From a virus (taxonomy: Duplodnaviria; Heunggongvirae; Uroviricota; Caudoviricetes): DNA of 64,000 nt. Positions within the stretch are counted from its first letter, which is position 1; each line of letters opens with the position of its first letter. Location: IMG/VR virus record IMGVR_UViG_2703718862_000005; one strand, 5' to 3'. This document shows positions 13,401-16,400 of the stretch, piece after piece. Position numbers: made by a program.

Positions 13401-16400
13401 TTGCTTGCACTGATGACCTGCTCATTAATCATGATTATTTGAAAATTAAGGTAGGCGTACTATATATAGAAACACTGCTACGCTCCGTTGGCATAATATA
13501 AAATCATTCCTGTCCTTCCTTACCGTAGTGCAGTTGACCAATTTTGATTAGAGGGCGTCCCTGAGATTTGCGGTGTAGATTGGTATCGCGCAGTGAATAC
13601 ACGCAGCCACAATATTCCTGCTGATAGAATTGTTCGCGCTTGCTGATTTCAATCATGCGGGAAGAGCCGCCCTGTTTTCGCCAGTTATAATCCCAGTACA
13701 CCATGCCCGGATAATGCGCGACGGCTCGCCGTCCACAGTCGTTAACCTGCTGCATATTTTTCCAGCGTGAAATGCCCAGTGAGCTACTGATCACACTGAA
13801 ACCATTTTCAGCGGCATACAGTGCAGTCCGCTCAAAACGCATGTCAAAACACATGGTACAACGGATCCCTCGTTCAGGCTCCCATTCCATTCCTTTGGCT
13901 CGCTCAAACCAGTTGTCTGTGTCGTAATCAGCATCAATAAATGGCACGCCGTGTTGTTTAGCAAAGCGAATATTCTCATCCTTACGAATTAAATACTCTT
14001 TCTGAGGATGAATGTTCGGGTTGTAGAAAAAGATGGTGTAGTCGATTCCCGAGGCCTGAAGCGCCTCCATCACTTCACCGGAACATGGAGCACAGCAAGA
14101 GTGCAGTAATAGTTTTTTTGCCCCGTTTGGGAGCTCCAATTTGGGGCGTTTGAAATCAGCAACAGTCATAAATGTGTTTATGAGGTTCATGAAAATAGCA
14201 AAAAGTGTAGCATCAGAACGGGCTATCGGAAACAGATGTCTAAATCTGGTAATGTCTGCTTTTGATGCAAAGCAGACAACCACGGCAGCGCACGAAAATC
14301 AGCGATAATGTCGGGATTAATAATCGGGTGACGTCCATCACATAGCGAATGTTCCTCTTTCCTGATATCGCTAAATATCGACCATTCGTCATTCTTATCG
14401 AACCAGAGCATGCGACTGCCACAGCACATGTCGAGAATGGTAGCCGATGTACTCACAGCATCACCTCCCGATAATTCCCCTGATAAAACGTCAGAACACG
14501 CTGCATAACTTCGCTCTTCCGGCACTCGCGACAGATTATGTTTAGACGACTGTCGTAGCGGCGTATTTCTCCGTCAGGTAATGACCAGATAAGGTCCGGA
14601 TCAACCACAGCAGGTTTCTTCACCTTTGCCCTCGAGAGTTTTTTGCGGGCGTTTTGCCAGTCCTTACGCGCCTGTTCAGACGGGAATAACCCGTAGCCGG
14701 AGTTGTATACATCGCCACTGGCTACCTGCTCTCTGGCAAGAACGCTCATCAGATATCTAGTCGCACCTGTTTTAGCTTCCAGTTGCCGTAACGTCTCACG
14801 ACCGCTCTGGCGCACGAGTTCCACCACCTGCCCTTTAATTTTTTCCCGCTCTTCTTGTGTAAAAACTTTTGCCACAAGTCCCCCTTAAAATTACCTCATG
14901 ACCTGAAATCAACACTTATCCTCTGAAACCAGGCGGAATTTCTGTATCCGGTTCAGAAATATGATTAACACAACGCTGTACAGGTGAACGTCCCAGGCGG
15001 ATGACCAGTTCGTCCCATTTTTCGCGGAGCTTTGACGGGCTCATGATGTTTTTTACCCAGAATGGATCTCGCTGAACCCGACCAAACATTTCGCAAATTT
15101 GTCTGTGGCTTCTGCCATCCAGCATCCGCATTGTGCGCACGTCATTGGCCCAGACAGTCCAGTTAGGCTCTTTTGGTCTCATGATCTCGCCATCATCACT
15201 GGCTGCCTGTTCGTAGAGGCCCACGATCCGCCCCCAGATCCACTGCGCACACGCCAAATCCTCCCTGCTACCCCACTGGCGTTTTTTCGCACTAAACACA
15301 ACCGCGTCGGAGTTCCGGGTTAAAAAATCCTGTTCAGTCGTCTGCGGGTCCGGTTGCGAAGCTTCCGGACGAAAAGTGTTTTTATTCTCTGTAGTAATCT
15401 CTGTTGTATTCTCTGTAAGATCATCAGGCCATTTTGACCCGATGACATTGGATCGTTTTGAACCAATGGAGCGTTTCATTTTGACCTCTTCCATCGTGTC
15501 ATTTTGACCTGATGGAGCGGCGCATTTTGAACCGATGGATTCGCTCAATTTGCCATCATCTAAAAGCTCGCTCCCGTAGTTGATCGTGTAGAAATTGGTC
15601 ATATCGCGCTTTGATTTATTGAGCTTTTCACAACGCAAAAGCCCCAGCGTTTTCAGACTTGCAAACGCGCGCTTTAACGTTGACTCTGACCAGAATGGGA
15701 ACTGTTCCAGCCATTGTTCCGTTGTGTTGTAAATCCAGCGAACACCATCACATTCCATACCGGAATTGGTATCTCTCAACCAGTAATGCAACTGCTGCAA
15801 CACAATGGCTTCATTTAAGCCAATCTTCATCGCAAGCTGTGTGTTTATAACCAGTGGGCGTTCAGCAAAAAGAAGGCTCATAATTCCATCCAGCTTTTTG
15901 TTGGTATTGCTGTCGATACGCAAGTTTGAAAGCAATTGCTTTTTCTATAAGTTCGTCAGTTTCACGATCCACTACGGCAGGATCAGCAAAAAGCAGTCCG
16001 GACTCCACCACATCGCCATATTCTTTGTTTAACCCGGCGATCATGTACGTGATGCTTTTTCCGTCACTAATTTCACGATACAACCTGAAATCATTAATCC
16101 GGATAGCCTCCATAATTGCAGGCACTAGCGCCGTGAACTTTTCACGCTTATCCCTGGTGTCGATAGCCTTCCAGCGTTCGAATATCTTCACTCGATTAAC
16201 GCCAAGCGCTCGCTGATCAACCGCGCCACCTTCATCTGTGACACGCTGAACATCGATGTTCGGGCGCTCTTTCAAAGCCCAGAATGCTTCAGTGATTAAT
16301 ATCGTCGCCTGCTCCTGTGTCATTCCTGGTCGACATATCCAGGCATCCAGAGCCTCACGAGCCTGTTCAGGAGTGATTTTCATTGTTCAACCGCCCCGCC

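What the first reader, a model, noticed from the sequence alone, without database searches (positions are those of the whole stretch)
13504..14190. Queuosine-pathway-like gene (QueH/DUF208-type) inside the lambdoid prophage
[12 protein letters not shown] plus further conserved cysteines resemble the Fe-S epoxyqueuosine reductase family QueH, which E. coli does not normally use (its own enzyme is QueG). A prophage copy could modify host tRNA or take part in DNA modification.
Basis: partly seen in the sequence, partly recalled or inferred. Interest (0 to 1): 0.5.

Follow-up and report, generated by a model that had tools for sequence, protein, structure and literature searches.

The report
Prophage-borne QueH tRNA queuosine reductase gene
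An intact copy of the vitamin-B12-independent enzyme QueH, which finishes the queuosine modification of tRNA, is carried as cargo in a lambda-like prophage of E. coli, a species that always also has the B12-dependent enzyme QueG; the gene family is well known and the gene is already named in RefSeq, so only its phage context is mildly new.

Summary
The minus strand of 13504-14190 encodes a full-length QueH/DUF208 protein (Pfam PF02677, E 1.9e-65). It keeps all six family cysteines and every near-invariant family residue. Its predicted fold matches the Thermotoga maritima QueH crystal structure (TM 0.82). The likely start is the ATG at 14169 (221 aa), which RefSeq already annotates as "epoxyqueuosine reductase QueH".

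The gene lies in the early-right operon of an intact Qin-like lambdoid prophage, in a variable cargo slot between a DUF977 gene and hokD. Its nearest relatives outside Escherichia are chromosomal queH genes of Enterobacterales (85-91% aa).

About 18% of complete E. coli genomes carry it (995 of 5426), on at least three prophage backbones. All 5426 have queG. Prophage copies are under strong purifying selection (dN/dS about 0.06; 82 of 82 intact).

No tgt, dpdA-like or queA/C/D/E/F gene accompanies it, so a DNA-modification role is unsupported.

Best reading: a captured housekeeping gene acting as a B12-independent back-up for the last step of queuosine-tRNA synthesis. Activity and benefit are inferred, not shown. 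This is a new member of a known kind, of modest interest.

The parts
13504..14169 (-). queH coding sequence (221 aa plus stop).
   Evidence: Pfam QueH E 1.9e-65. RefSeq CDS WP_001595803.1 'epoxyqueuosine reductase QueH'. PDB QueH 7lc5 E 5.6e-22. Foldseek TM 0.82 to 7lc5/7lc7. Homology to chromosomal queH DNA begins at 14171-14212.
14204..14212 (-). Candidate extended -10 promoter element TGCTACACT, 34 nt upstream of the ATG at 14169.
   Evidence: Conserved block in an alignment with the chromosomal Kluyvera and Scandinavium queH upstream regions, which read TGCTACAAT. Present at the same 34-nt distance in 81 of 81 phage-type loci (73 TGCTACACT, 8 TGCTAGACT) and, with 0-2 mismatches at 28-36 nt, in the closest chromosomal loci. 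Not found by the simple two-hexamer scan, which needs a -35 element. Its function is inferred, not shown.
13498..14284 (-). The queH module shared between different prophage backbones: about 94 nt of upstream sequence, the ORF, and 6 nt downstream.
   Evidence: blastn gives 92.5% identity over exactly this span to the ST131-type prophage (L004) and the E. albertii prophage (L086), with unrelated sequence outside it until DUF977 and hok.
14271..14456 (-). Truncated DNA methyltransferase pseudogene immediately upstream of queH, cut off where the queH module begins.
   Evidence: RefSeq 'methyltransferase, incomplete, missing C-terminus'. PADLOC MTase_II E 2.4e-17 covers only the N-terminal part of the profile. 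Homology to a full-length class I SAM methyltransferase in strain 1223 stops at window 14290.
14453..14875 (-). DUF977 gene, the conserved upstream neighbour that marks one edge of the cargo slot.
   Evidence: RefSeq annotation. Present next to queH in 75 of 80 viral loci and in three prophage backbones.
13389..13425 (-). Perfect 13-bp stem-loop about 80 nt downstream of the queH stop. It is a possible weak terminator and lies in a 372-nt segment (13126-13497) that the ST131-type version lacks.
   Evidence: RNA fold of 13360-13510 on the minus strand. The tail is not a clean U-run and the terminator scan did not call it. The segment is absent in L004.
12736..13060 (-). hokD/sok type I toxin-antitoxin locus, the conserved downstream neighbour and other edge of the cargo slot.
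   Evidence: RefSeq hokD. Rfam sok RF01794 at 12886-13060, 115 bits, E 5.5e-27.

Best explanation
The gene is a functional copy of the iron-sulfur, cobalamin-independent tRNA epoxyqueuosine(34) reductase QueH. A lambdoid phage captured it from a chromosomal queH of an Enterobacterales bacterium. It is now carried as a single-gene cargo ('moron') in the variable slot after the replication/DUF977 genes of Qin-, Rac- and ST131-type prophages.

Mechanism, taken from what is known of the family: the host makes epoxyqueuosine at position 34 of tRNA-Asp, -Asn, -His and -Tyr using its own Tgt and QueA. QueH then uses a [4Fe-4S] cluster and an adjacent iron site, held by the six conserved cysteines, to reduce the epoxide to the cyclopentenediol of queuosine.

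E. coli's own QueG needs cobalamin, and E. coli must import corrinoids. The phage copy would therefore make completion of queuosine independent of B12 supply, both in the lysogen and during lytic growth.

Shown here: family membership, intact catalytic motifs, predicted fold, origin, distribution, purifying selection and the absence of partner genes. Inferred: enzymatic activity in E. coli, expression from its own extended -10 promoter as well as from the early-right operon, and any fitness benefit.
For: Family membership:
- Full-length Pfam QueH match, E 1.9e-65.
- PDB QueH, E 5.6e-22, with all six Cys aligned.
- The window protein has the consensus residue in all 32 columns that are at least 85% conserved in a 46-sequence family alignment.
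- AlphaFold2 pLDDT 80.3. The top Foldseek hits are the five T. maritima QueH entries, TM 0.80-0.82 normalised to the target.

Origin:
- 85-91% aa identity to chromosomal queH of Scandinavium, Kluyvera, Enterobacter, Providencia, Proteus and Erwinia.
- The Providencia gene sits in a housekeeping context next to tmcA and purC. The Scandinavium gene is in a non-phage context.

Selection and distribution:
- 82 of 82 fetched prophage copies are intact. dN/dS between the two main prophage alleles is 0.054-0.064.
- 995 of 5426 complete E. coli genomes carry it, 985 with at least 80% of the gene. queG is in 5426 of 5426.

Expression: a conserved TGnTAnnnT element lies 34 nt upstream of the start in phage and nearest chromosomal copies.

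Literature: the final step of Q synthesis with QueG is cobalamin-dependent (PMC4646009). QueH is treated as the B12-independent alternative (PMC10378866). QueG and QueH coexist and are differentially expressed in S. aureus (PMC13443448).
Against: - No experiment here or in the searchable literature shows that this protein reduces oQ in E. coli, or that it is expressed in lysogens.
- The gene has no recognisable Shine-Dalgarno sequence. Its -10 element (TACACT or TAGACT) is weaker than the chromosomal TACAAT.
- The low dN/dS could partly reflect divergence that occurred before capture, if the two alleles were captured separately.
- NAU/NAC codon usage of prophage genes shows no signal that the phage depends on queuosine status.
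- Whether oQ-tRNA and Q-tRNA differ in function is not established, so the benefit of finishing the last step is uncertain.
- There is no cobalamin or preQ1 riboswitch, or other recognisable regulatory RNA, linking the gene to B12 or Q status.
Confidence: 0.75

Rival explanations
1. The gene is a lytic-cycle auxiliary gene only. It is transcribed solely as part of the early-right operon after induction. It tunes the host tRNA pool (Q versus oQ at GUN anticodons) for translation of phage late genes and gives the lysogen nothing.
For: Same strand and position as the delayed-early genes, between the replication genes and the Q antiterminator. The two-hexamer scan found no canonical sigma-70 promoter upstream of the gene. 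An isolated 45-kb phage, HannyBb, carries an identical copy.
Against: A conserved extended -10-like element inherited from chromosomal queH genes sits 34 nt upstream of the start. tRNA turnover within one lytic cycle is limited. NAU/NAC usage in the late genes (36% C-ending) is close to the small host sample (32%). The prophage has no tRNA genes of its own in the window.
Confidence: 0.12
2. The gene is a selectively neutral passenger. It was picked up by illegitimate recombination and spreads only because the cargo slot is recombinationally mobile among lambdoid phages.
For: The DUF977-hokD slot holds many unrelated cargoes: alpha/beta hydrolase, DUF5677, DUF7167 plus hypothetical genes, and a SAM methyltransferase. 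The insertion truncated a methyltransferase gene. A deletion derivative lacking queH exists (L003). The host already has QueG everywhere.
Against: 82 of 82 copies are intact, dN/dS is about 0.06, and there are 25 nucleotide alleles but only 10 protein alleles. 985 of 995 genomes keep at least 80% of the gene. All catalytic and near-invariant residues are retained. The gene is kept on at least three prophage backbones.
Confidence: 0.08
3. The protein takes part in 7-deazaguanine modification of phage DNA, or in some other non-tRNA chemistry such as anti-defence.
For: Phages are known to use parts of the queuosine pathway for DNA modification (PMC6884629). The slot is a typical location for defence or counter-defence cargo.
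Against: No Tgt/DpdA-like transglycosylase and no QueC/D/E/F homologue were found in the window or in 84 related prophage loci. Hutinet et al. found that DNA-modifying phages lack QueA, QueG and QueH. There is no PADLOC match. At 85-91% identity to housekeeping chromosomal QueH, a change of substrate is unlikely.
Confidence: 0.03

Closest known systems
QueH (DUF208, PF02677), the cobalamin-independent tRNA epoxyqueuosine(34) reductase. Structures from Thermotoga maritima: 7LC5, 7LC7, 9DEU.
   Same: Full-length domain. Motifs CCxPx, RCxxC and YCGC. All near-invariant family residues. Predicted fold TM 0.82 to 7LC5, with about 30% identity to the T. maritima enzyme and 85-91% to Enterobacterales chromosomal QueH.
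   Different: It is encoded on a temperate phage rather than in a housekeeping locus. The position of T. maritima Asp13 is Cys36 (228-aa numbering). That is the majority state of the family: CCAPC in 105 of 117 motif-bearing representatives against CCAPD in 3. A basic C-terminal tail of about 25 residues (…[25 protein letters not shown]) extends past the end of the aligned T. maritima region and is shared with the Enterobacterales chromosomal proteins.
[quoted passage not shown]
   Same: Same reaction and same substrate (oQ34-tRNA to Q34-tRNA). Both genes are present in the same cell in 995 complete E. coli genomes.
   Different: No sequence similarity: tblastn with QueG finds nothing in the window. 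The two are non-orthologous and use different cofactors; QueG needs B12 and QueH does not (PMC4646009; PMC5372724; PMC10378866).
Phage 7-deazaguanine DNA modification clusters (DpdA with FolE/QueD/QueE/QueC, as in phage 9g).
   Same: A phage carries a gene of the queuosine pathway.
   Different: Those systems use the early, preQ0-forming part of the pathway plus a DNA transglycosylase, and explicitly lack QueA, QueG and QueH (PMC6884629). Here only the last, tRNA-specific step is present, with no transglycosylase.
Lambdoid-phage morons, that is, lysogenic-conversion cargo in the nin-type region.
   Same: A single gene in a variable slot between conserved modules, with alternative cargoes in related phages, a probable own promoter and a downstream hairpin.
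   Different: The cargo is a core tRNA-modification enzyme that duplicates a host function, not a virulence, exclusion or defence gene. Its base composition (47.5% GC) does not stand out from the surrounding prophage.

Membership tests
QueH / DUF208 (PF02677) | Full-length match to the family profile above the curated threshold | tested here: met
   E 1.9e-65, 220.7 bits against a cut-off of 23.5, profile positions 1-174 of 175.
QueH / DUF208 (PF02677) | Six conserved metal-binding cysteines (CC near the N-terminus, RCxxC in the middle, CGC near the C-terminus) | tested here: met
   C32, C33, C111, C114, C194 and C196 (228-aa numbering) align with T. maritima C9, C10, C87, C90, C169 and C171. 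These columns are 100% conserved in the 46-sequence alignment.
QueH / DUF208 (PF02677) | Residue at the position of T. maritima Asp13 (CCAPD; PDB holds a D13N mutant structure, 9DCO) | tested here: met
   It is Cys36 here. Cys is the majority state: CCAPC in 105 of 117 motif-bearing cluster representatives and in all 120 close homologues, against CCAPD in 3. Whether Cys and Asp are mechanistically equivalent was not tested.
QueH / DUF208 (PF02677) | Three-dimensional fold of solved QueH | tested here: met
   AlphaFold2 model with pLDDT 80.3 and pTM 0.80. Foldseek ranks 1-5 are the T. maritima QueH entries, E 3.5e-11, TM 0.80-0.82 normalised to the target. The next hits are other adenine-nucleotide alpha-hydrolase-fold enzymes such as TtuA and LarE, at TM below 0.5.
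QueH / DUF208 (PF02677) | Reduces epoxyqueuosine to queuosine in tRNA (complements a queG mutant); binds [4Fe-4S] plus iron | not testable with these tools
   Needs LC-MS of tRNA nucleosides from a queG deletion strain expressing this ORF, plus metal analysis and EPR of the purified protein.
Phage 7-deazaguanine DNA modification system (Dpd-type) | DNA/tRNA-guanine transglycosylase homologue (DpdA/Tgt) in the same element | tested here: not met
   tblastn with E. coli Tgt found no hit at E <= 1 in the window plus 84 related prophage loci, 1.09 Mb. The RefSeq annotation shows none. A very divergent DpdA could escape tblastn.
Phage 7-deazaguanine DNA modification system (Dpd-type) | preQ0 synthesis genes (QueD, QueE, QueC) in the same element | tested here: not met
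   Only one insignificant QueC hit (E 0.48) in 1.09 Mb.
Phage moron / auxiliary metabolic gene | Lies in a slot whose content varies among otherwise homologous phages | tested here: met
   Between DUF977 and hokD, related prophages carry QueH, an alpha/beta hydrolase, DUF5677, DUF7167 plus three hypothetical genes, a SAM methyltransferase, or a deletion.
Phage moron / auxiliary metabolic gene | Own promoter and terminator allowing expression from the repressed prophage | tested here: inconclusive
   A conserved extended -10-like TGCTACACT lies 34 nt upstream of the start, and a 13-bp hairpin lies downstream. The consensus scan called neither, and no transcript data are available.
Anti-phage defence protein (PADLOC-DB) | Match to a known defence-system profile | tested here: not met
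   No family at E <= 0.01.

The most novel reading that the evidence does not exclude
Prophage queH is a lysogenic-conversion gene. It frees about a fifth of E. coli strains, including ST131 and some O157:H7, from the vitamin-B12 requirement for completing queuosine in tRNA. This would parallel the MetE/MetH pair, but delivered by a phage. It would change decoding or fitness when corrinoids are scarce or when BtuB is lost.
Probability: 0.3. Interest if true: 0.5.

Novelty: new member of a known kind. Interest (0 to 1): 0.3.

Why it matters
If active, this is a clear case of a temperate phage carrying the final, tRNA-specific step of queuosine synthesis. A 2019 survey of viral queuosine-pathway genes reported that QueA, QueG and QueH were absent from the viruses it analysed (PMC6884629).

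It would give lysogens a cofactor-independent isozyme next to the universal B12-dependent QueG. E. coli strains with and without the prophage would then differ in how their tRNA modification responds to corrinoid supply. That is easy to test with a queG deletion and LC-MS.

It also has a practical side. The gene is common enough (18% of complete genomes) to matter when queuosine or epoxyqueuosine phenotypes are compared between K-12, which lacks it, and clinical isolates.

On the other hand, the enzyme family, its chemistry and its annotation are established, so nothing about mechanism or family is new.

Tried and rejected
1. NCBIfam scan: no family. The RefSeq name must come from another rule.

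2. PHROGs: only phrog_3217 'unknown function'. This shows the phage databases have not linked the gene to QueH.

3. Search for other phage lineages carrying QueH. The non-Escherichia hits in the phage collection proved to be mislabelled bacterial DNA.
- 'Acinetobacter phage MD-2021a' is a 328-kb contig with soxR, cynX and tadA.
- The 'UNVERIFIED Bacteriophage sp.' faecal contig carries ABC transporters, argininosuccinate lyase and aspartate-semialdehyde dehydrogenase.
- All 80 IMG/VR loci returned are Escherichia-type lambdoid prophages.

4. NAU/NAC codon bias of prophage versus host genes as a test of queuosine dependence: no informative difference, and the host sample is small.

5. Riboswitch or other regulatory RNA upstream of queH: none. 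Only sok/hok downstream.

6. A 10-bp hairpin at about 14254-14279 that I saw by eye is not conserved in the ST131 allele, so I dropped it.

7. Base-composition evidence for foreign origin: queH is 47.5% GC against 48.8% for the window, which is not distinctive.

8. The key QueH papers (Zallot 2017, PMC5495094; Li 2021, PMC8884141) and Frey 1988 (PMC211089) are not held. Statements about the [4Fe-4S] plus iron site and about cobamide dependence rest on secondary citations, PDB entry titles and my own knowledge.

9. Literature searches for QueH or DUF208 together with prophage, phage or E. coli found no paper discussing this prophage gene.
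Full report
**What is there.**
The minus strand of window 13504-14190 is an open frame whose product contains [17 protein letters not shown] and YCGCV.
- It matches Pfam PF02677 (QueH, formerly DUF208) over the whole profile: E 1.9e-65, 220.7 bits against a cut-off of 23.5.
- It matches the solved T. maritima QueH (7LC5) at E 5.6e-22, with all six cysteines aligned.
- I aligned it with 44 diverse cluster representatives plus the T. maritima sequence. The window protein has the consensus residue in every one of the 32 columns that are at least 85% conserved.
- An AlphaFold2 model (pLDDT 80.3) retrieves the five T. maritima QueH entries as the top Foldseek hits, with TM 0.80-0.82 normalised to the target. 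Other alpha-hydrolase-fold enzymes (TtuA, LarE) follow far behind.

T. maritima has Asp13 in its CCAPD motif, and PDB holds a D13N mutant, so that residue is of mechanistic interest. The window protein has Cys there. Cys is the family norm: CCAPC occurs in 105 of 117 motif-bearing representatives and in all 120 close homologues, against 3 with CCAPD. This is therefore not a deviation.

**Start codon and signals.**
- RefSeq calls the CDS from the ATG at 14169 (221 aa, WP_001595803.1, 'epoxyqueuosine reductase QueH').
- DNA similarity to the nearest chromosomal genes begins at 14171 (Scandinavium) or 14212 (Kluyvera).
- Neither ATG has a clear Shine-Dalgarno sequence.
- 34 nt upstream of 14169 lies TGCTACACT (14212..14204, minus strand). 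The same block is TGCTACAAT in the Scandinavium and Kluyvera chromosomal upstream regions. It sits at the same distance in 81 of 81 phage-type loci.
- This looks like an extended -10 promoter inherited with the gene. The two-hexamer scan did not call it because there is no -35 element.
- A perfect 13-bp hairpin lies about 80 nt downstream of the stop (13389-13425).
- No riboswitch or other Rfam element precedes the gene.
- Expression from its own promoter is an inference. Expression from the early-right operon after induction is expected from its position.

**Context.**
The first 28.4 kb of the window differ at only 6 positions from E. coli S19-651. Window 1 to about 23,070 is the part of an intact Qin-like lambdoid prophage that runs from the portal gene to the integrase, next to rspB.

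On the minus strand the order is: cro-like, YdaT, O-like replication protein, DUF977, a truncated methyltransferase, queH, hokD/sok, rem, DUF968, Q-type antiterminator, lysis genes, terminase, portal.

The stretch between DUF977 and hokD is a variable cargo slot. Related prophages hold there an alpha/beta hydrolase (O157, O103), DUF5677, DUF7167 plus three small genes, an intact class I SAM methyltransferase, or a deletion.

Exactly window 13498-14284 (the ORF, 94 nt upstream and 6 nt downstream) is shared at 92.5% identity with an ST131-type prophage and an E. albertii prophage. Methyltransferase homology stops at 14290. So queH is a discrete module that truncated the methyltransferase gene on arrival in this backbone. 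A Rac-like prophage (AR436) carries it too, again downstream of DUF977. An isolated 45-kb phage, HannyBb, has an identical copy annotated only as 'hypothetical protein'.

**Origin.**
- The best matches outside Escherichia are chromosomal queH genes: Scandinavium 91%, Kluyvera 90%, Enterobacter 86-89%, and Erwinia, Providencia and Proteus about 85% aa.
- None of these has DUF977 or hok neighbours.
- The Providencia gene lies in a housekeeping neighbourhood with tmcA, purC and dapE-like genes. The Scandinavium gene is in a non-phage context.
- This proteobacterial QueH subfamily is unusually conserved, at 75-80% between alpha- and gamma-proteobacteria.
- The phage gene is thus a barely altered captured housekeeping gene.

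**Distribution and selection.**
- The gene occurs in 995 of 5426 complete E. coli genomes, 985 with at least 80% of its length. Identity to the window gene is at least 99% in 62 genomes, 95-99% in 13 and 90-95% in 920; the last group includes ST131 and some O157:H7.
- queG is present in 5426 of 5426, so queH is always a second enzyme for the same step.
- All 82 fetched prophage copies are intact. There are 25 nucleotide alleles but only 10 protein alleles.
- dN/dS between the window allele and the other main allele is 0.054-0.064.
- This argues against a decaying passenger. Part of that divergence could predate capture if the alleles were captured separately.

**Partners.**
- tblastn with E. 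coli QueA, Tgt, QueC, QueD, QueE, QueF and QueG found nothing significant in the window plus 84 related prophage loci (1.09 Mb).
- The RefSeq annotation lists no such gene.
- The window has no tRNA genes, and PADLOC has no match.
- Hutinet et al. 2019 reported that phages that modify DNA with 7-deazaguanines carry the preQ0 genes plus DpdA, and that no QueA, QueG or QueH homologues occurred in the viruses they analysed (PMC6884629).
- The DNA-modification idea is therefore not supported. The enzyme must act on oQ-tRNA made by the host's Tgt and QueA.

**How it most likely works.**
QueG needs cobalamin for the final step of Q synthesis (PMC4646009, citing Frey 1988). QueH is the non-orthologous, iron-dependent and B12-independent replacement (PMC5372724, PMC9508795, PMC10378866). 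E. coli does not make corrinoids de novo (my own knowledge).

A prophage queH would then let the lysogen, or the infected cell, complete Q without B12. S. aureus has both enzymes, and they are expressed differently, which has been interpreted as reflecting cofactor availability (PMC13443448). This part is inference. I found no experiment on the E. coli prophage gene. A crude test of queuosine-dependent codon bias in prophage genes was uninformative.

**Comparison with the known, and verdict.**
By every sequence and structure criterion testable here, the protein is a member of QueH. Enzymatic activity and metal content could not be tested. It is not a QueG, not part of a Dpd-type DNA modification system, and not a known defence protein.

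The family, the reaction and even the annotation of this very protein are established. What is modestly new is the carrier: temperate lambdoid phages, about 18% of complete E. coli genomes, and redundancy with a universal QueG. I could find no discussion of that in the searchable literature, and it contradicts the earlier statement that viruses lack QueH.

I rate it a new member of a known kind, with interest about 0.3. The most novel reading not excluded is phage-delivered B12-independence of queuosine synthesis as lysogenic conversion (probability about 0.3).

Noticed in passing
window 29843-36473: A ~6.6-kb islet with a site-specific integrase, a KilA-N domain gene and hypothetical genes is inserted in the ynfE/ynfF DMSO/selenate-reductase region. 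It is absent from the otherwise near-identical strain S19-651. Only 21 of 5426 complete genomes cover at least 80% of the 6.9-kb query (29700-36600) containing it, at about 97% identity in the best hits such as UMNK88.
   Followed up: partly
window ~40100-64000: Part of a second phage-like element begins at a truncated 4Fe-4S protein gene (ynfG). By comparison with strain S19-651 it carries Ant antirepressor, Ea22-like, TraR/DksA, DUF551 fragments, an 8.4-kb LPD38-domain gene (about 45007-53388), another Hok/Gef gene, Lom and tail-fibre genes.
   Followed up: no
window 13126-14452 and the equivalent slot in L003, L004, L005, L177: The region between DUF977 and hokD is a cargo hot-spot in Qin-, Rac- and ST131-type lambdoid prophages. 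Alternative contents are QueH, alpha/beta hydrolase (O157/O103), DUF5677, DUF7167 plus three hypothetical genes, and a class I SAM methyltransferase. None of the other cargoes was examined.
   Followed up: partly
window 14271-14456 (minus strand): An N-terminal remnant of a type II/orphan DNA methyltransferase (PADLOC MTase_II, E 2.4e-17). It overlaps the DUF977 stop and is cut off where the queH module starts. Full-length versions exist in other strains (for example strain 1223, L005).
   Followed up: partly
window 13126-13497: A 372-nt AT-rich segment (36% GC for 13285-13503) lies between queH and the hok/sok locus. It is absent from the ST131-type version and contains a perfect 13-bp inverted repeat (13389-13425). 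The annotation of phage HannyBb places small hypothetical ORFs here. Its function is unknown.
   Followed up: partly
L173 (CAKLQH020000001.1) and L172 (MT835504.1): Two records filed as phages look like bacterial chromosomal DNA: 'Acinetobacter phage MD-2021a' (328 kb) and an UNVERIFIED 'Bacteriophage sp.' faecal contig. They carry soxR, cynX and tadA in the first, and ABC transporters, argininosuccinate lyase and asd in the second. Their QueH hits do not count as phage genes. In the first record the QueH homologue is annotated 'putative prophage protein'.
   Followed up: yes
window 12646-12732 (minus strand): A weak, sub-threshold Rfam match to the isrK Hfq-binding sRNA (25.7 bits against a gathering score of 50, E 0.006) just downstream of hokD.
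   Followed up: no
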